Below, in pieces: positions 5,386-10,537 of a DNA stretch of 64,000 nucleotides. The first letter of the stretch is position 1. The number at the start of each line of letters is the position of its first letter. This stretch comes from a virus. The notes beneath the pieces were generated by a model. That model worked only from the letters and a program-made list of their open reading frames with translations. It searched no databases and was not told the origin of the DNA. The position numbers were made by a program, and so were the translations under genes. The stretch lies in UHGV virus genome UHGV-1375844. One strand, written 5' to 3'.

Positions 5386-5634
5386 TCATAGCGTACTCAC
5401 CAGTGCCGCAAATTCTGTATAACCCCCGATAGGCTCACCATTTACGAACACCTGCGGTATGGTTTCCACCGGCTTGCCAACCAGGTCGCTCAACTTCTCT
5501 TTGTCGATCCCGGCCGCCATGATGTCAATGTATTCGTAATCACCAAAGCCGTGGCCCTGCAGCTGCTTCGCCAGCTCGACCGCACGTTTGCAGTATGAGC
5601 AATTATCGCGTCCGTAGATAACGACCTTCATCAC
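5386..5634 (-). CDS. Glutaredoxin (NrdH/Grx-like)
   Basis: 82 aa; VVIYGRDNCSYCKRA CxxC active site and TIPQVFVNGEPIGGYTEF glutaredoxin signature. Confidence 0.8.
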   Translation of the reverse strand: MMKVVIYGRDNCSYCKRAVELAKQLQGHGFGDYEYIDIMAAGIDKEKLSDLVGKPVETIPQVFVNGEPIGGYTEFAALVSTL

Positions 5635-5996
5635 TTCACCTCGTGCAGCTGCTGCTTGAGAAGATAGCCTTCCAGGGGCCAGATTTTGGCAATCGCGTTC
5701 TGGCGTGCAATTTTACGTCCGATCTCCGGATCAAAGTTCTCCGGGCTGGCGCACGCAGACTCGCCAGTTACCGTGTAGCCGTTCTCCAGCACAAGAACGC
5801 AGAAGGTCAGCAGTTCGAGTGATTGCGGGGCCGGCTCAGGCTCTTCCTGCTTCAGCCACAACGGTGAGCTGCGATATCCGTCCGCGCCGGTAAAGTAAAA
5901 CTCGCCTGAGATAACGGCTTCGATGCGTTCCGGGGTAACACGCGCGGCCGTTTTGCCTTTGGCCACGATCTCTTTCTCGATATCCATATCGGTCAT
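5631..5996 (-). CDS. Gp49-like phage protein (PF13876-like)
   Basis: 121 aa; segment VTGESACASPENFDPEIGRKIARQNAIAKIWPLEGY resembles the N4 gp49 / Sf6 gp66 family as I recall it; 4-nt overlap with the glutaredoxin gene. Confidence 0.45.
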   Translation of the reverse strand: MTDMDIEKEIVAKGKTAARVTPERIEAVISGEFYFTGADGYRSSPLWLKQEEPEPAPQSLELLTFCVLVLENGYTVTGESACASPENFDPEIGRKIARQNAIAKIWPLEGYLLKQQLHEVK

Positions 5997-6011
5997 TTTG
6001 GTTTCCTTACG

Positions 6012-6999: not shown

Positions 7000-7046
7000 G
7001 TTGAGTCCTTTCAAGTGAGTCACCGGCCTGACTATAGCTAAATATG

Positions 7047-7066
7047 ATAAGTAAGTCATTACTTAT
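7047..7066. repeat. Intergenic palindrome family (ATAAGTAAG-n-CTTACTTAT), copy
   Basis: ataagtaagtcattacttat between the PhoH start and the plus-strand moron. Confidence 0.6.
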
Positions 7067-7205
7067 TTATCGTGGCTTTGTGCTAGGTTAAAACAGCTTT
7101 GGGGAGCTGGTGCGCTTAAGGCCTTCCAGAAAACTCAAACTAGCTGAAATAGTAGGGTCAATTAGGTATCATTCCTTTTCAAATTTAACCAAAGACTCTT
7201 ATAAA

Positions 7206-8438
7206 ATGCCTGCTTTGTTAATTCTCATAATTGGGACATTGATGATTATTTTCTGGGATGTGATTAAGGAAAACGTAGAGGTTATAGGTACGCTTGCCAC
7301 TTCACTTGCCTTTTTTGCTACTGCCTGGGCTGCTTACGAGGCAAGGCATAGTGCAAAGGCGGCAATGAAGGCGACCCAGCTGACGGCTGATTCACTTCTT
7401 GAAATGAAAAAAGCCTCTTTTAAGGAGTGGTACGGCATTTTACTTGAACAGCATAATAAATTACTTGAGGATGTTAATAAGACCTTATTGGATGACAATG
7501 AACTTAATACCAGGTTGAATATTAATGTCATAAGAGGTATTTATTATCACGTAACCAAAAATCCTGCTTACATTAAGTATATTAATCACATAATTTTAAT
7601 CCTGAATTATGTAGATAAAGACTTTTATCTGCCGTCCTCGGCGGAAAATGAAAAGAGATCTTATATAGAACAGTTGCGCAACAGCATTAGCCCAAAAGTA
7701 AGCCTGCTGATTGCTATTTTTGGCCTTAATATCGACAATAATAAAACTTATGATGCAAAGAAACTTTACAACCTTCTAAGCAAATATAACTTTTTTGAAA
7801 ATGAGCTATTTTTTGAAGTTGCAATATCAAAAGTTCATTACTTAGACACTTATGTCGCCGAGATATTTGACAAAGAATACCGAAAAGACGTTGAATTTTA
7901 TGTTGATGAAACGGTTTGTGGTCGTGCGCTCTCTTTTATCAATACGACATGCCGACACCATAGGATTACTTTCGCAGTTCAGTGGTCTTACAACAACCCC
8001 TGCCAAAAGCATTTGCTGAAAAGATTCAATGACCTACCTATGCACATGAGAAACGTCATTGGGCTGAACATGGAAAAAGCAGCCGAGAAAGTGGCTACGT
8101 TTAATTCTGAGTTGCCTGGTTTTGTCGGCTGGGAAATTAAGATTGCTAATAATAAGGTGAGAGTAATTAAGGATGAAAAAGAACTGAAAAGGCTAATAAA
8201 GCTTTACTATAAATACCCCTTTGACCCTCGACAAACTGGTATCGTGTTAACCAATGGTTTCACCAATAGATTCGCCGATGAGATTAGGAATAGTATGTCT
8301 AGCTATGCTTTACATAAAGCCTATCTAGAACTCAGCTCTAATCCGAACAAAGATCAGGTAATTGATGAGATTGTGTCAGAGGTTGAAAAAATGGTCGATA
8401 AATTTAAAACAGAACTTAATTCTTTCTGCTTTAACTGA
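7206..8438 (+). CDS. Hypothetical membrane-anchored protein, AT-rich moron
   Basis: Only plus-strand gene in a minus-strand block; markedly AT-rich, K/N/I/Y-rich; N-terminal hydrophobic helix (PALLILIIGTLMIIFW); own terminator; ORF track begins at GTG 7110, first ATG at 7206, no clear SD. Confidence 0.55.
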   Translation: MPALLILIIGTLMIIFWDVIKENVEVIGTLATSLAFFATAWAAYEARHSAKAAMKATQLTADSLLEMKKASFKEWYGILLEQHNKLLEDVNKTLLDDNELNTRLNINVIRGIYYHVTKNPAYIKYINHIILILNYVDKDFYLPSSAENEKRSYIEQLRNSISPKVSLLIAIFGLNIDNNKTYDAKKLYNLLSKYNFFENELFFEVAISKVHYLDTYVAEIFDKEYRKDVEFYVDETVCGRALSFINTTCRHHRITFAVQWSYNNPCQKHLLKRFNDLPMHMRNVIGLNMEKAAEKVATFNSELPGFVGWEIKIANNKVRVIKDEKELKRLIKLYYKYPFDPRQTGIVLTNGFTNRFADEIRNSMSSYALHKAYLELSSNPNKDQVIDEIVSEVEKMVDKFKTELNSFCFN

Positions 8439-8446
8439 CTAAAAGA

Positions 8447-8474
8447 AAAGGGGCCGAAGCCCCTTTGGATTTTG
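8447..8474. terminator. Bidirectional rho-independent terminator
   Basis: ggggc-cgaa-gcccc hairpin flanked by an A-run (8441-8449) and a T-rich run (8464-8473); sits between convergent genes 7206..8438 (+) and 8639..9250 (-). Confidence 0.7.
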
Positions 8475-8638
8475 CGCTGAAAAAAGTCTAACTACGATGC
8501 TAAGAAGCACTATGGTTAAGAACGTCTGCCGTGTCTATCACAGCGTTGAACGGTCTGGGTGACGTTAGCGGAGTCATTTAGTGAATGGAATCCCAAACCG
8601 TTCAGCGATGTGCTGGCCTCCGCAGAGGCCAGTCGGTA

Positions 8639-9250
8639 TTACGATTTGCCGGCGTTAACTACCACGCCCTGGCGACGAGAGTCAGCTTCGGCAATCTTCA
8701 GTCGAGTTTCGCGTTCGGCCTTCAGCTCGCCCTGCAATTGGGCCACCTGCGACTCAAGGAACTCGATACGAGAGTCTTTCGCGGCGCTGGATGCGTTCAG
8801 TTCCGCCATTTCCACACGATGATCAGACTTCAGCTGGTTGACTTCCGCAGTAAATTTGCTGGCAGCTGCGCTATAGCCAGCTTCGCGAGCTGTGTTAACC
8901 GCCTCTTCGTTGTTGTCCAGCGCGTTTTCAAGATCGCGCTTAAGCTGAGTCAGCTCGACGTTGGAAATGCTGGCCAGACCGCGCTTCTTCATCAGATCCG
9001 CAAGTACGCCATCTTCGTTTTCGATTACCTTCAGACGCAGTTCCGCAGCCTTTTCTCGCTCTTTACTTGCGAACTGGCTATCCAGACCAGCCAGCTCAGC
9101 CTGGCGATATTCAATTTCTTCGGCCAACGTAACGCTGGTTTGTGAAAGGGTGTTCAGCTCGGTCGCAACCTTCGCCATATCACCGGCAGCTTTAACCATT
9201 GCTTTGGTGGAACGCTCAGTTAGGGAGATGACTTTCTTAACTTCGGACAT
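8639..9250 (-). CDS. Hypothetical coiled-coil protein
   Basis: 203 aa, heptad-rich (AELAGLDSQFASKEREKAAELRLK..., VAQLQGELKAERETRLK); immediately downstream of the tRNA cluster. Confidence 0.5.
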   Translation of the reverse strand: MSEVKKVISLTERSTKAMVKAAGDMAKVATELNTLSQTSVTLAEEIEYRQAELAGLDSQFASKEREKAAELRLKVIENEDGVLADLMKKRGLASISNVELTQLKRDLENALDNNEEAVNTAREAGYSAAASKFTAEVNQLKSDHRVEMAELNASSAAKDSRIEFLESQVAQLQGELKAERETRLKIAEADSRRQGVVVNAGKS

Positions 9251-9275
9251 GTGTTTTCCTTCGTCGCTTTTATAT

Positions 9276-9362
9276 TGGCGGAAGGTAATGGAATCGAACC
9301 ATCACCGCGCTCGCAGTGGGACGGTTTTCAAGACCGCTTGAGCACCATGCTCCCTACCTTCC
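9276..9362 (-). tRNA. tRNA-Ser: tRNA-Ser (anticodon UGA), class II with long variable arm
   Basis: Reverse complement gives GGAAGGT...GGTCTTGAAAACCG...GGTTCGATTCC...ACCTTCCGCCA; 7-bp acceptor stem, encoded CCA, anticodon loop CTTGAAA. Confidence 0.7.
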
Positions 9363-9604
9363 GTTATTTAGTGTGGTGGCCGGCGCTGATCTCCGGCATA
9401 ACAACCCGACTTAAATTCGCGACTTTAAATCGGTTCCTCCGTTTGTCCACTTTAGCCCGGAGTTAGCAACCTCAGTCACTCACCGATATGCCTATCGGTG
9501 GCGCGCATCAGCCTGCGCATTCACCACAACGGTGAGAGCACTCTTGGCGAACCTGTAGATTGGGCTATGATCCCGTTACAAGCGAATGCTCTTACCTGTT
9601 GTGT

Positions 9605-9737
9605 TGGTGCCGGTTAACGGACTCGAACCGTTGACCTCTGGCCTAACATCGGATCGTTGTCATTGACCAGCCATGCTGTCTACCGAAGTAGAAACGATGC
9701 TTTGGCTCTCGCGCTCTACCAACTGAGCTAAACCGGC
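9605..9737 (-). tRNA. tRNA-like element with a ~58-nt internal insertion (disrupted or intron-bearing tRNA)
   Basis: Reverse complement starts GCCGGTTTAGCTCAGTTGGTAGAGC (acceptor + D arm) and ends AACGGTTCGAGTCCGTTAACCGGCACCA (T arm + acceptor + CCA), but 79 nt separate the D arm from the T arm; the insert contains a UUCG-tetraloop hairpin (tctac-ttcg-gtaga). Confidence 0.35.
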
Positions 9738-9739
9738 AT

Positions 9740-9814
9740 TGGCGATGATGGGTGGATTCGAACCACCGACCAGTTGATTAACAGTCAACCGCTCTACCAC
9801 TGAGCTACACCATC
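9740..9814 (-). tRNA. tRNA-Asn: tRNA-Asn (anticodon GUU)
   Basis: Reverse complement GATGGTGTAGCTCAGTGGTAGAGCGGTTGACTGTTAATCAACTGGTCGGTGGTTCGAATCCACCCATCATCGCCA folds as a canonical cloverleaf; anticodon loop CTGTTAA. Confidence 0.8.
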
Positions 9815-9829
9815 AATTTCGCAGCGGTA

Positions 9830-10530
9830 CTGGCTTCAAAGATGAAGTTTTCCCGCAACTTGCACTTTGCGTTAGTGCCAGACGAGGCTTGCGGCTCGCT
9901 CAAATAGAGCGAAGATCTTAAACACTGCTCGGTGCTTCAGAGAGCGCCGGGGAGTCAGATCTTATTGGATGTATGGAATCATCCGTGTTGTGGCAGCTAC
10001 ATGCTAAAACCAGAGGGTATTACTATTGCCACAACGTTGAGGCCACTAAACCAGTAATGTTTGCCCAACATCTTTGTCAGTCGCTACAGCCTCTGTGGAT
10101 TCACCTGTATGATTGAAAGAAACAGTGGCCTCAACGTTGTGTGCTGGCTAACCAGGCCAGCCGGGTTACGTCGCCGATCTTCTTTAACCCAAGACAAAAC
10201 GACATAAGTAATGGAAATGACGTAACAGGATGAACGGTCGATAACTGAAACCGGGATAGGTGAATGGAATGAGGAAACCAACCGCCCATCCTGTTACTTC
10301 ATCGGAGAGGGCATGGGTGGTGCCGTATCATGCCCTCTCCTGCGTTCTGCAATCACACTCGCTCAGTGTGTCCCATTTCGGTGACGAGGCTGGAAACTGA
10401 CCTCGCTGGTGTTTGGCTTATTATGCTACTGCCAGATACTGATTGTCGTTTGCAGTTATCTTTAAACGTTCAAACAGTCGCGTACTAACGAAAACAAAGC
10501 AATCTTATACATATCATAAAAATAAGTAAA
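9830..10530. other. ORF-poor, highly structured non-coding region (candidate ncRNA or origin)
   Basis: Perfect 17-bp inverted repeat acaacgttgaggccact (10031-10047) / agtggcctcaacgttgt (10124-10140); perfect 12-bp-stem hairpin ggagagggcatg (10304-10315) / catgccctctcc (10329-10340); 11-bp inverted repeat gtaacaggatg / catcctgttac; no convincing ORF. Confidence 0.4.
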
Positions 10531-10537
10531 TACTTAT
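10521..10537. repeat. Intergenic palindrome family, copy
   Basis: aataagtaaatacttat. Confidence 0.5.

What the first reader, a model, noticed from the sequence alone, without database searches (positions are those of the whole stretch)
9605..9737. tRNA-like gene interrupted by a ~58-nt insertion between two canonical tRNAs
The element has a perfect 7-bp acceptor stem, a canonical D arm and a T arm with encoded CCA, but 79 nt lie where about 22 are expected. The insert contains a UUCG-tetraloop hairpin. It sits 2 nt from tRNA-Asn in the same orientation. It may be an intron-bearing or permuted tRNA, a tRNA pseudogene, or a tRNA-derived structured RNA.
Basis: seen in the sequence. Interest (0 to 1): 0.5.

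Follow-up and report, generated by a model that had tools for sequence, protein, structure and literature searches.

The report
Phage tRNA-shaped RNA carrying a folded domain
This is not a broken or intron-split tRNA: it belongs to a conserved family of phage RNAs that keep a tRNA body but carry a small, highly conserved four-helix domain in place of the anticodon arm, so it cannot read codons and must do something else, which is still unknown.

Summary
On the minus strand, 9737..9605 encodes a 133-nt RNA. It has a perfect 7-bp acceptor stem, canonical D and T arms and an encoded ACCA. It lies 2 nt after tRNA-Asn. Where the 17-nt anticodon stem-loop should be, there are 74 nt.

It is neither junk nor an intron. 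I found 20 distinct variants in P1-like and SSU5-like phage-plasmids, N4-like phages of E. coli and Pseudomonas, Yersinia-type prophages, jumbo-phage contigs and MAGs. Most sit inside same-strand tRNA arrays.

Covariation supports this architecture: acceptor, D arm, an irregular P1 stalk, P2, three abutting hairpins (P3, P4, P5), then the T arm. In the alignment 98.7% of cells are paired, against 30-49% in slid controls, and 21 of 38 pairs show compensatory changes.

The inserted core is better conserved than the acceptor stems (82% versus 44% mean identity). No conserved anticodon loop can be recovered by removing it. Rfam has no family for it, and RefSeq labels it only "tRNA-OTHER".

In enterobacterial elements it occupies the slot of P1 tRNA-Thr(UGU), with a 95% identical body.

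Best reading: a non-decoding RNA matured like a tRNA, whose four-way-junction domain is a binding (or catalytic) module acting in trans. The molecular function is not established.

The parts
9605..9737 (-). Whole element: 133-nt tRNA-shaped RNA (tRNA body plus 74-nt domain replacing the anticodon stem-loop)
   Evidence: Rfam tRNA model 46.7 bits, full length, with a 72-nt insertion. Own covariance model R1 scores 147.6 bits here, against 55 bits or less for ordinary tRNAs.
9731..9737 (-). Acceptor stem, 5' strand (GCCGGUU)
   Evidence: 7 of 7 pairs with 9609-9615. All 7 pairs show compensatory changes across the family.
9713..9728 (-). D arm (GCUC-AGUUGGUA-GAGC)
   Evidence: Mean pairwise identity in the family is 86%.
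9704..9711 (-). P1 5' strand (CGAGAGCC): irregular stalk at the position of the anticodon stem. Pairs with 9638-9643 (GGCCAG).
   Evidence: All five pairs show compensatory changes (GCC/GGC to GGG/CCC to CGGC/GCCG). The conserved motif is C-R-A-G-N-G on one strand and C-A-G on the other.
9695..9699 (-). P2 5' strand (CAUCG). Pairs with 9647-9651 (CGAUG).
   Evidence: The closing pair covaries: GC 11, CG 5, GU 2, AU 1, UA 1. U-A changes to U-G in 3 variants. RNAalifold predicts the helix de novo.
9679..9692 (-). P3 hairpin UCUAC-UUCG-GUAGA, preceded by the invariant UU at 9693-9694
   Evidence: The stem is invariant in all 20 variants, including those found with patterns that did not specify it. 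The loop varies: UUCG, GUAA, UCCG, UUAG, CUCG.
9668..9678 (-). P4 hairpin CAGC-AUG-GCUG
   Evidence: 3 of 4 pairs covary (CAGC/GCUG, CGC/GCG, CCC/GGG, CAC/GUG, CUGC/GCAG).
9659..9667 (-). P5 hairpin GUC-AAU-GAC
   Evidence: GUC/GAC changes to GGC/GCC in three variants.
9652..9658 (-). J5/2, the near-invariant unpaired junction strand AACGAUY
   Evidence: AACGA is invariant. It can alternatively pair with AUCGUU (9693-9698) to give a perfect four-way junction. Evaluated energies are -35.5 kcal/mol for that state and -41.5 for the P2 state.
9633..9637 (-). Variable loop AGGUC
9616..9632 (-). T arm AACGG-UUCGAGU-CCGUU
   Evidence: Three of five stem pairs covary.
9605..9615 (-). Acceptor stem 3' strand (AACCGGC), discriminator A and encoded CCA
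   Evidence: The CCA is encoded in only some family members.
9740..9814 (-). tRNA-Asn(GUU), immediately upstream in the same presumed transcript (context, not part of the element)
   Evidence: ARAGORN; Rfam 75.5 bits.

Best explanation
The element is a gene for a non-decoding, tRNA-shaped non-coding RNA. It is one member of a conserved phage family.

**Shown.** The RNA keeps a complete tRNA body: acceptor stem, D arm, variable loop and T arm, and therefore the elbow. The anticodon stem-loop is replaced by an irregular stalk (P1, then P2). The stalk ends in three abutting hairpins (P3, P4, P5), with invariant junction nucleotides GUU and AACGAU. The gene lies inside same-strand tRNA arrays.

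**Inferred.**
- It is co-transcribed with the neighbouring tRNAs.
- It is cut out by RNase P and the tRNA 3'-end machinery, with CCA either encoded or added.
- It is stabilised by its tRNA fold, as RNAs are in the engineered 'tRNA scaffold'.
- It cannot decode, because no anticodon loop exists.
- The compact four-way-junction domain is the functional part. It acts in trans as a specific binding surface for a conserved cellular or phage factor, or possibly for a small ligand.
- My preferred but unproven version is a stable decoy or sponge presented on a tRNA body.

In the enterobacterial phage-plasmids this RNA arose by, or is maintained as, an exact replacement of the anticodon arm of the P1-type tRNA-Thr(UGU) gene.
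For: **A conserved family.**
- 20 distinct variants score 103-159 bits with model R1. The best ordinary tRNA scores 55 bits.
- They come from P1-like IncY plasmids, SSU5-like plasmids, N4-like phages Jgk1 and Littlefix, Yersinia-type prophages, 130-340 kb phage contigs and MAGs.

**Structure.**
- 98.7% of cells are paired, against 30-49% in slid controls.
- 21 of 38 pairs have compensatory changes, and 0 of 500 shuffles reach the observed values.
- RNAalifold recovers the same architecture de novo.
- The payload alone folds to P2-P5 as its minimum-free-energy structure.
- G-U pairs occur on the tRNA-sense strand, so the RNA is read in that sense.

**The payload is the selected part.** Mean pairwise identity is 82% for the core, 44% for the acceptor stem and 67% for the T stem.

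**No decoding.**
- No member has a 7-nt anticodon-type loop.
- Intron-mode calls are inconsistent between homologues.
- P1 and P2 are continuous in L008 and L012.

**Context.** The element lies in same-strand tRNA arrays in most loci.

**Allelic replacement.** The body is 95% identical to P1 trnT, in the same slot after tRNA-Asn.
Against: - No expression, processing or binding data are available, so the transcript and its ends are inferred only from tRNA-likeness and context.
- No universally co-occurring protein partner was found in the flanks held.
- A few members lack flanking tRNAs (L008, L012, L147, L174, L182).
- In L147 and L182 the leader and trailer extend the acceptor helix to 11-14 bp. 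This is not an ideal RNase P/CCA substrate.
- Part of the core's sequence invariance comes from how members were found, by exact patterns within the core. The BLAST-found members (Jgk1, Littlefix) show the same trend.
- The alignment used for pair counts was fitted to the model.
Confidence: 0.6

Rival explanations
1. Decoy or inhibitor of tRNA-directed defence nucleases. The RNA presents a tRNA-Thr-like body with an uncleavable, reinforced 'anticodon arm'. In doing so it titrates Toprim tRNases such as PARIS AriB or P2 OLD, or another anticodon-arm nuclease. This is a specific version of the best explanation.
For: - In enterobacterial elements the body is 95% identical to P1 tRNA-Thr(UGU), and the gene sits beside tRNA-Asn(GUU).
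- tRNA-Thr(UGU) is the main target of P2 OLD. That enzyme cuts paired CNG motifs at positions 28-30 and 40-42 of the anticodon stem (PMC12445682).
- The conserved P1 (C-R-A-G on one strand, C-A-G on the other) sits at that place and looks like a disrupted CNG pair.
- The D loop keeps U16 U17, which the AriB model contacts.
Against: - Outside Enterobacteriaceae the bodies are not Thr-like, and the acceptor stems differ freely.
- The AriB site UAAUC|A is absent.
- Phage tRNA-Thr rescues OLD toxicity by replacing the host tRNA, not by competitive inhibition.
- The hypothesis does not explain why a specific, invariant four-way junction is needed.
Confidence: 0.12
2. The inserted domain is a small ribozyme or a ligand-binding aptamer (for example a sponge for a signalling nucleotide) displayed on a tRNA body.
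For: About ten invariant unpaired junction nucleotides and an invariant helix lie next to the junction, while the hairpin loops are free to vary. That pattern is typical of catalytic cores and binding pockets. Two mutually exclusive conserved helices (P2 and P2alt) suggest a switch.
Against: No match to any Rfam ribozyme or riboswitch, even at E up to 10 on the payload alone. The domain is only about 53 nt, with 3-5 bp hairpins. No expression platform or obvious cleavage-site logic is visible.
Confidence: 0.1
3. A cis-acting element of the tRNA operon transcript, with no function in trans. It could be a processing, stability or decay signal, or a spacer, that affects maturation or expression of the neighbouring tRNAs.
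For: It nearly always lies within tRNA arrays on the same strand.
Against: A full tRNA body with a covarying acceptor stem means the element is excised as its own molecule. Some members have no neighbouring tRNA. Neighbouring tRNA identities differ between lineages.
Confidence: 0.07
4. An RNA anti-CRISPR-like mimic. The P3 hairpin imitates the Cas12a (type V-A) repeat handle and traps the effector.
For: P3 with its 5' flank, CGUUUCUAC-N4-GUAGAC, shares the entire stem and the preceding UU(U) with AAUUUCUACUGUUGUAGAU, 13 of 19 positions. The repeat sequence was seen in the supplement of PMC10651486. The stem is invariant while the loop varies, as in Cas12a repeats. V-A Racrs exist.
Against: - Known Racrs are near full-length copies of host repeats, 36 of 36 for RacrVA1. 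Here only the hairpin matches.
- The AA of the handle and the 3' U differ.
- The hairpin is buried in a junction.
- The identified hosts (Salmonella, E. coli, Pseudomonas, Yersinia-type) are not typical Cas12a carriers (own knowledge).
- The resemblance rests on a 5-bp stem.
Confidence: 0.04
5. A functional tRNA interrupted by an intron that is spliced out to give a decoding tRNA.
For: The tRNA body is perfect. ARAGORN with introns allowed can force a tRNA-Val(GAC) model with a 42-nt intron.
Against: - That model has a mismatched anticodon stem and a non-canonical intron site.
- It changes to Ser, Arg, Lys, Ile, His or no call in homologues.
- No group I intron signature is present.
- L008 and L012 leave no loop after excision.
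- The conserved parts are inside the 'intron', not at its junctions.
Confidence: 0.03
6. A dead tRNA-Thr gene disrupted by an insertion (pseudogene).
For: It replaces tRNA-Thr in the P1-type slot. Gene finders either miss it or call it tRNA-OTHER.
Against: Insert and body are conserved by compensatory substitutions in 20 variants from unrelated phages.
Confidence: 0.03

Closest known systems
Bacteriophage T4 species 1 and species 2 stable RNAs (rnaC, rnaD)
   Same: They are encoded in a phage tRNA cluster on the same strand as the tRNAs. rnaC has a tRNA-type T arm and a paired 5'/3' end. They are 119-139 nt long. Their function is still unknown (own knowledge).
   Different: No sequence or structural homology: model R1 finds only the true tRNAs in the T4 region. 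rnaC lacks a normal D arm and the P2-P5 domain.
P1 trnT, tRNA-Thr(UGU) of phage P1
   Same: Same genomic slot, 2 nt after tRNA-Asn. The acceptor stem, D arm and T arm are 95% identical.
   Different: P1 trnT has a normal 17-nt anticodon stem-loop with UGU. Here positions 28-43 are replaced by 73 nt, and the variable loop is the family type, AGGUC rather than AUGUC.
Engineered 'tRNA scaffold' for recombinant RNA (anticodon arm replaced by an RNA of interest)
   Same: Identical design principle. The cargo RNA is inserted in place of the anticodon stem-loop, so the chimera is processed and stabilised like a tRNA. The method papers appeared in the search (for example PMC3753655); the design details are from my own knowledge.
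   Different: That system is man-made. This is a natural, evolutionarily conserved example with its own dedicated cargo.
YrlA / bacterial Y RNA-like RNAs (Rfam RF02553)
   Same: Non-coding RNAs containing a tRNA-like module with T and D arms.
   Different: In YrlA the 5'/3' ends form the Ro-binding stem and the 'acceptor' is closed, so the topology is opposite (own knowledge). The Rfam hit here is 24 bits against a gathering score of 69, and it spans two adjacent genes. No rsr gene was seen nearby.
P1/P7 C4 antisense RNA, herpesvirus tRNA-miRNA chimeras and MALAT1 mascRNA
   Same: Regulatory or non-coding RNAs that use a tRNA-like fold to be processed by RNase P or RNase Z (own knowledge).
   Different: Different sequences and architectures. 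C4 acts through antisense loops, whereas the loops here are free to vary.
RNA anti-CRISPRs (Racrs), type V-A
   Same: Small phage RNAs that act as decoys. The P3 stem equals the Cas12a repeat stem.
   Different: Racrs are solitary, near full-length CRISPR repeats. This element is a tRNA-embedded junction sharing only a 5-bp hairpin.

Membership tests
Canonical decoding tRNA (Rfam RF00005) | 7-bp acceptor stem, D arm, T arm with GTTCRA loop, discriminator (and CCA) | tested here: met
   Full-length RF00005 match at 46.7 bits. All three features can be read directly in the sequence.
Canonical decoding tRNA (Rfam RF00005) | 5-bp anticodon stem and 7-nt loop with U33 and an anticodon | tested here: not met
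   74 nt replace it. Only one pair of the anticodon stem aligns. No 7-nt loop is present in any of the 20 variants.
tRNA with a self-splicing group I intron (the bacterial/phage type) | Intron of about 200 nt or more with the group I core, inserted in the anticodon loop | tested here: not met
   The insert is 57 nt net. No Intron_gpI or other Rfam hit, even at E up to 10.
tRNA with a short protein-spliced intron (archaeal/eukaryal type) | A conserved exon junction that restores an anticodon stem-loop of one isotype | tested here: not met
   ARAGORN intron mode gives Val, Ser, Arg, Lys, Ile, His or no call, with different intron sites, across homologues. L008 and L012 have no residual loop. Bacteria lack the splicing endonuclease (own knowledge).
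Permuted tRNA | 3' half encoded upstream of the 5' half | tested here: not met
   Collinear match to model positions 1-71.
tRNA pseudogene | Neutral decay: stems broken, insert not conserved | tested here: not met
   98.7% of cells paired, 21 pairs with compensatory changes, and the insert core 82% identical across unrelated phages.
tmRNA | tRNA-like domain without a D stem, plus a tag-peptide reading frame and pseudoknots | tested here: not met
   ARAGORN finds no tmRNA. A D stem is present. The insert is too short for a tag ORF.
YrlA / Y RNA-like (RF02553) | Score at or above the gathering threshold, with the Ro-binding stem formed by the RNA's own ends | tested here: not met
   24.2 bits against 69. 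The match straddles the tRNA-Asn T arm and the next gene's D arm.
Phage tRNA-cluster stable RNAs (T4 rnaC/rnaD type; a functional class, not a homology family) | Encoded within a phage tRNA cluster on the same strand, with tRNA-like ends | tested here: met
   context; tRNA-like ends; T4 layout.
Phage tRNA-cluster stable RNAs (T4 rnaC/rnaD type) | Accumulates as a stable RNA processed by RNase P | not testable with these tools
   Needs Northern or RNA-seq data and RNase P assays.
Phage tRNA-cluster stable RNAs (T4 rnaC/rnaD type) | Sequence or structure homology to rnaC or rnaD | tested here: not met
   Model R1 gives no hit on T4 70908-71171 at E up to 1.
RNA anti-CRISPR (Racr) | Near full-length similarity to a CRISPR repeat | tested here: not met
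   Only 13 of 19 positions of the V-A handle match (stem plus UUU). Nothing of the 5' half of the repeat is present.
RNA anti-CRISPR (Racr) | The matching CRISPR-Cas type is present in the host, and the RNA inhibits it | not tested
   Host CRISPR content was not examined.
Known self-cleaving ribozyme and riboswitch classes (Rfam 15) | Match to a curated covariance model | tested here: not met
   Nothing on the payload except a 13-bit chrB-a chance hit.

The most novel reading that the evidence does not exclude
The 53-nt four-way-junction domain is a new functional RNA fold: a protein-trapping decoy, a ligand sponge or a small ribozyme. Many unrelated phages deliver it disguised as a tRNA, so that the host's own tRNA machinery matures and stabilises it. 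It would be one example of a broader, unrecognised class of 'cargo-carrying tRNA-likes' in phage tRNA arrays, alongside T4 rnaC/rnaD and the other insert-bearing tRNA-likes seen next to it in jumbo-phage and N4-like arrays. These would act in counter-defence or host takeover.
Probability: 0.2. Interest if true: 0.85.

Novelty: new variant of a known kind. Interest (0 to 1): 0.62.

Why it matters
Phage tRNA genes are currently explained by codon usage or by replacement of tRNAs that defence nucleases destroy. This element shows that some 'tRNA genes' in those arrays cannot decode at all. Instead they carry a conserved structured cargo.

If the cargo proves to be a decoy, sponge or catalyst, it would be a natural counterpart of the engineered tRNA scaffold. 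It would also give a handle on the 50-year-old puzzle of the T4 species 1 and 2 RNAs.

In practical terms, these genes are missed or labelled 'tRNA-OTHER' in annotation. The covariance model built here, or one like it, would allow systematic annotation.

Tried and rejected
- **Intron models.** ARAGORN with introns allowed gives inconsistent calls between homologues.
- **Rfam.** Searches at gathering and permissive thresholds, on the region and on the payload alone, returned nothing but tRNA. The only other hits were a spurious YrlA match and a 13-bit chrB-a match.
- **Homology to T4 rnaC/rnaD.** None found.
- **Conserved neighbouring protein.**
  - All-against-all comparison of ORFs in 21 loci found no universal partner.
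  - A PF13876 (N4 gp49 / Sf6 gene 66) protein is nearby in four lineages. It is the only clear protein shared between the window and the whole Jgk1 genome.
  - It is also present in N4-like phages that lack the element, such as Moo19. It is absent from the flanks I hold for the other loci.
  - PADLOC gives no hit.
- **Payload spreading by recombination into resident tRNA genes.** Supported only for the P1/SSU5 lineage (95% to P1 trnT). In other arrays the body is not close to any neighbouring tRNA.
- **Antisense targets.** No sites complementary to the conserved junction strand occur in the window.
- **5S rRNA loop E resemblance (GCGAGAG / CGAUG).** Considered by eye and dropped. Only the first two pairs would correspond, and the motif is not conserved as such in the family.
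- **K-turn and hammerhead cores.** Checked by eye; not present.
- **Literature.** Ten searches, including exact sequence strings, found no description of this RNA.
- **Extra pattern scans meant to find members with a different P3.** None found.

Full report
**Observation.** Read on the minus strand, window 9737..9605 is:

GCCGGUU-UA-GCUC-AGUUGGUA-GAGC-G-[74 nt]-AGGUC-AACGG-UUCGAGU-CCGUU-AACCGGC-A-CCA.

The acceptor stem pairs 7 of 7, the D and T arms are canonical, ACCA is encoded, and there is a cUUCGg hairpin.
- tRNA-Asn(GUU) lies 2 nt upstream at 9740-9814. tRNA-Ser(UGA) lies 242 nt downstream at 9276-9362.
- Default ARAGORN does not call the element.
- The Rfam tRNA model matches it end to end at 46.7 bits (gathering score 29, E = 8e-7 for the window), with a 72-nt insertion where the anticodon arm should be.

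**Source.**
- The window is an SSU5-like phage-plasmid of Salmonella.
- The element with tRNA-Asn is 99-100% identical to pSTM_Phi and to two other Salmonella plasmids.
- The surrounding DNA is only 80-95% identical to pSTM_Phi and carries a different segment at 7024-9274.
- About 1.3 kb around the tRNAs (9251-10533) has no credible ORF.

**A family, not an accident.** BLAST and four exact-pattern scans of viral, genome and metagenome collections gave 20 distinct variants of the whole element.

- Three E. albertii IncY P1-like plasmids carry it, as do E. coli IncFIB SSU5-like plasmids.
- So do the G7C/N4-like E. coli phage Jgk1, a related 70-kb contig, and the N4-like Pseudomonas phage Littlefix.
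- Prophage-like contigs related to Yersinia myoviruses carry it.
- Phage contigs of 135-341 kb carry it, as does an Orrella MAG.
- It is rare in enterobacteria: 11 of 725 matching PLSDB plasmids carry the full element, while the rest have a normal P1-type tRNA-Thr. It occurs in 6 of 5,426 complete E. coli genomes, always on plasmids.
- RefSeq annotates those copies as 133-nt 'tRNA-OTHER'.
- Phage SSU5 itself lacks the element.

**Structure.**
- A covariance model built from the 20 variants scores them at 103-159 bits. The best ordinary tRNAs reach 55 bits; these are T4 and P1 tRNA-Thr.
- On the members-only alignment, 98.7% of cells form standard pairs, against 30-49% when partners are slid by 1-3 columns. 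21 of 38 pairs show changes on both sides, and none of 500 column shuffles reaches the observed values.
- RNAalifold, run without my structure, returns the same helices.

The architecture has these parts:
- **tRNA body.** Acceptor stem (all 7 pairs covary), D arm and T arm (3 of 5 stem pairs covary).
- **P1.** An irregular stalk at the place of the anticodon stem, with consensus 5'-C-R-A-G-N-G.../...C-A-G-3'. All five pairs covary, for example GCC/GGC to GGG/CCC.
- **Linker.** Variable in length and sequence.
- **P2.** (S)AUCG/CGAU(S). The closing pair is seen as G-C, C-G, G-U, A-U and U-A.
- **Three hairpins that abut with no linker.**
  - P3 is UCUAC-N4-GUAGA. The stem is invariant. The loop is UUCG, GUAA, UCCG, UUAG or CUCG.
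  - P4 is CAGC/GCUG, also seen as CGC/GCG, CCC/GGG, CAC/GUG and CUGC/GCAG.
  - P5 is GUC/GAC, also seen as GGC/GCC.
- **Junction strands.** UU, and the near-invariant AACGAUY.

Further points on the structure:
- P3 stays invariant in members retrieved with patterns that did not include it.
- G-U pairs occur on the tRNA-sense strand. This argues for an RNA read in that sense rather than a DNA-level signal.
- The covariation-supported fold evaluates at -41.5 kcal/mol, against an MFE of -44.0 kcal/mol. The payload alone folds into P2-P5 as its MFE structure.
- An unexplained detail: AUCGUU can also pair with the invariant AACGAU. That would give a perfect four-way junction with no unpaired junction nucleotides, at -35.5 kcal/mol. 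It may be a folding intermediate or a switch.

**What it is not.**
- *Not an intron-containing tRNA.* No group I or other Rfam family matches the insert. The linker between P1 and P2, where a residual anticodon loop would have to be, is not conserved. In L008 and L012 the two helices are continuous. ARAGORN with introns allowed produces a strained tRNA-Val(GAC) here, but Ser, Arg, Lys, Ile, His or nothing in the homologues, each with a different intron site.
- *Not permuted*.
- *Not a pseudogene*, given the compensatory changes.
- *Not tmRNA or YrlA.* The YrlA hit of 24 bits (threshold 69) straddles two adjacent genes.

**Relation to tRNA-Thr.**
- The enterobacterial copies have an acceptor stem, D arm and T arm 95% identical to P1 trnT, tRNA-Thr(UGU). 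They occupy its slot directly after tRNA-Asn.
- The difference is an exact replacement of positions 28-43, together with the family-type variable loop.
- Other members have unrelated acceptor stems, such as GGUUUUU, GUUCACU and GGGGAAG, and are not close to any neighbouring tRNA.
- Mean pairwise identity is 82% for the payload core and 86% for the D arm, but only 44% for the acceptor stem and 67% for the T stem. Part of the core's invariance comes from searching with exact patterns. The BLAST-found members show the same trend.
- Selection therefore acts on the tRNA shape and on the sequence of the payload.

**Context and inferred biogenesis.**
- In most loci the element lies within same-strand tRNA arrays of varied composition.
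- From established tRNA biology I infer co-transcription, 5' cleavage by RNase P, 3' trimming with CCA encoded or added, and stabilisation by the tRNA fold. None of this is shown here.
- Exceptions are worth noting. Five lineages have no tRNA in the flanks held. In L147 and L182 the leader and trailer extend the acceptor helix to 11-14 bp.

**Function.**
- No protein is universally linked to the element.
- A PF13876 (N4 gp49 / Sf6 gene 66) protein lies nearby in four lineages.
  - It is the only clear protein shared between this window and the whole Jgk1 genome.
  - It also occurs in relatives without the element.
- The best-supported statement is general. This is a non-decoding RNA matured like a tRNA, whose compact junction domain is the functional module acting in trans.
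- Its wide host range and integral tRNA body point to a universal partner or to an intrinsic activity.

I considered four specific versions:
- **(a) Decoy for anticodon-arm nucleases.**
[quoted passage not shown] The conserved P1 sits there and resembles a disrupted CNG pair.
  - Against: the Thr-like body is lineage-specific, the AriB site is absent, and phage tRNA-Thr was shown not to act by competition.
- **(b) Ribozyme or aptamer.** The conservation pattern fits, but there is no match to known classes.
- **(c) Cis-acting operon element.** Unlikely, given a complete excisable body.
- **(d) Cas12a-repeat mimic.** P3 equals the V-A handle stem, 13 of 19 positions. However, Racrs are full-length repeats and these hosts are not typical Cas12a carriers.

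None of these can be decided computationally.

**Comparison and novelty.**
- The closest known things are the T4 species 1 and 2 RNAs. They share the genomic logic and tRNA-like ends but show no homology.
- In design, the closest is the engineered tRNA scaffold.
- No Rfam family covers the domain. Ten literature searches, including exact sequence strings, found no description of it.
- I therefore rate it a new variant of a known kind: a new, well-supported family of phage tRNA-like non-coding RNAs.
- The same arrays contain further unannotated tRNA-likes with other insertions. The phenomenon may therefore be broader.

**Limits.**
- There are no expression or biochemical data.
- Members were collected partly with exact patterns inside the core.
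- The pair counts used a model-fitted alignment, although RNAalifold agrees.
- Flanks are short for many metagenomic loci.

Noticed in passing
L029 1779-1887 and 1893-2001; L020 677-785 and 792-894; L153 1846-1952 and 1960-2068; L001 (Jgk1) 2585-2713; L002 (Littlefix) 2919-2990: Other unannotated tRNA-like RNAs with different large insertions (103-129 nt), or with a miniature 'anticodon' arm (72 nt), sit next to the element in the same phage tRNA arrays. This suggests a wider class of cargo-carrying or non-decoding tRNA-likes.
   Followed up: partly
window 5634-6011 (-): A 126-aa PF13876 protein (N4 gp49 / Sf6 gene 66 family, function unknown). It is the only clear protein shared between this 64-kb window and the whole N4-like phage Jgk1 genome (57% identity). 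It also lies near the element in L005 and L165 and is present in Littlefix as gp04. One related phage record labels its homologue 'anti-CRISPR protein'.
   Followed up: partly
window 7024-9274: This segment is absent from pSTM_Phi at this position. It holds a 442-aa plus-strand ORF (7110-8438) with only a sub-threshold putAbiC (abortive infection) Pfam hit, and a 203-aa minus-strand ORF (8639-9250) of phrog_9325 with unknown function. PADLOC gives no hit.
   Followed up: partly
window 9363-9604 and 9815-10533: These ORF-free stretches flank the tRNAs and contain several GC-rich hairpins, for example GCCGGAGAUCAGCGCCGGC and CACCGAUAGGCAUAUCGGUG. No Rfam family matches them. In P1 the corresponding upstream region is annotated as dicF-like. 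Further small RNAs may be encoded here.
   Followed up: partly
window 9652-9658 with 9693-9698 (-): The invariant junction strand AACGAU is complementary to the invariant AUCGUU, which also forms P2. The alternative pairing would give a perfect four-way junction with no unpaired junction nucleotides. It could be a conformational switch or a co-transcriptional folding intermediate.
   Followed up: partly
window 9276-9362 (-): ARAGORN calls tRNA-Ser(UGA) here. At gathering thresholds Rfam does not list it. It appears only as a sub-threshold tRNA-Sec match (45 bits against 47), because overlapping matches within a clan are reduced to the best one.
   Followed up: no
L147 2043-2179 and L182 1827-1967: In these two variants the 5' leader and 3' trailer are complementary and extend the acceptor helix to 11-14 bp (CACAAGGUGUU/AACACCUUGUG). 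Neither has an encoded CCA. This hints at a different maturation route or a longer functional RNA.
   Followed up: no
window 9688-9795 (-): An Rfam YrlA (Y RNA-like) match of 24 bits arises because the T arm of tRNA-Asn followed by the D arm of the next tRNA-like gene imitates the permuted tRNA-like module of YrlA. It is an artefact to watch for in tRNA arrays.
   Followed up: yes
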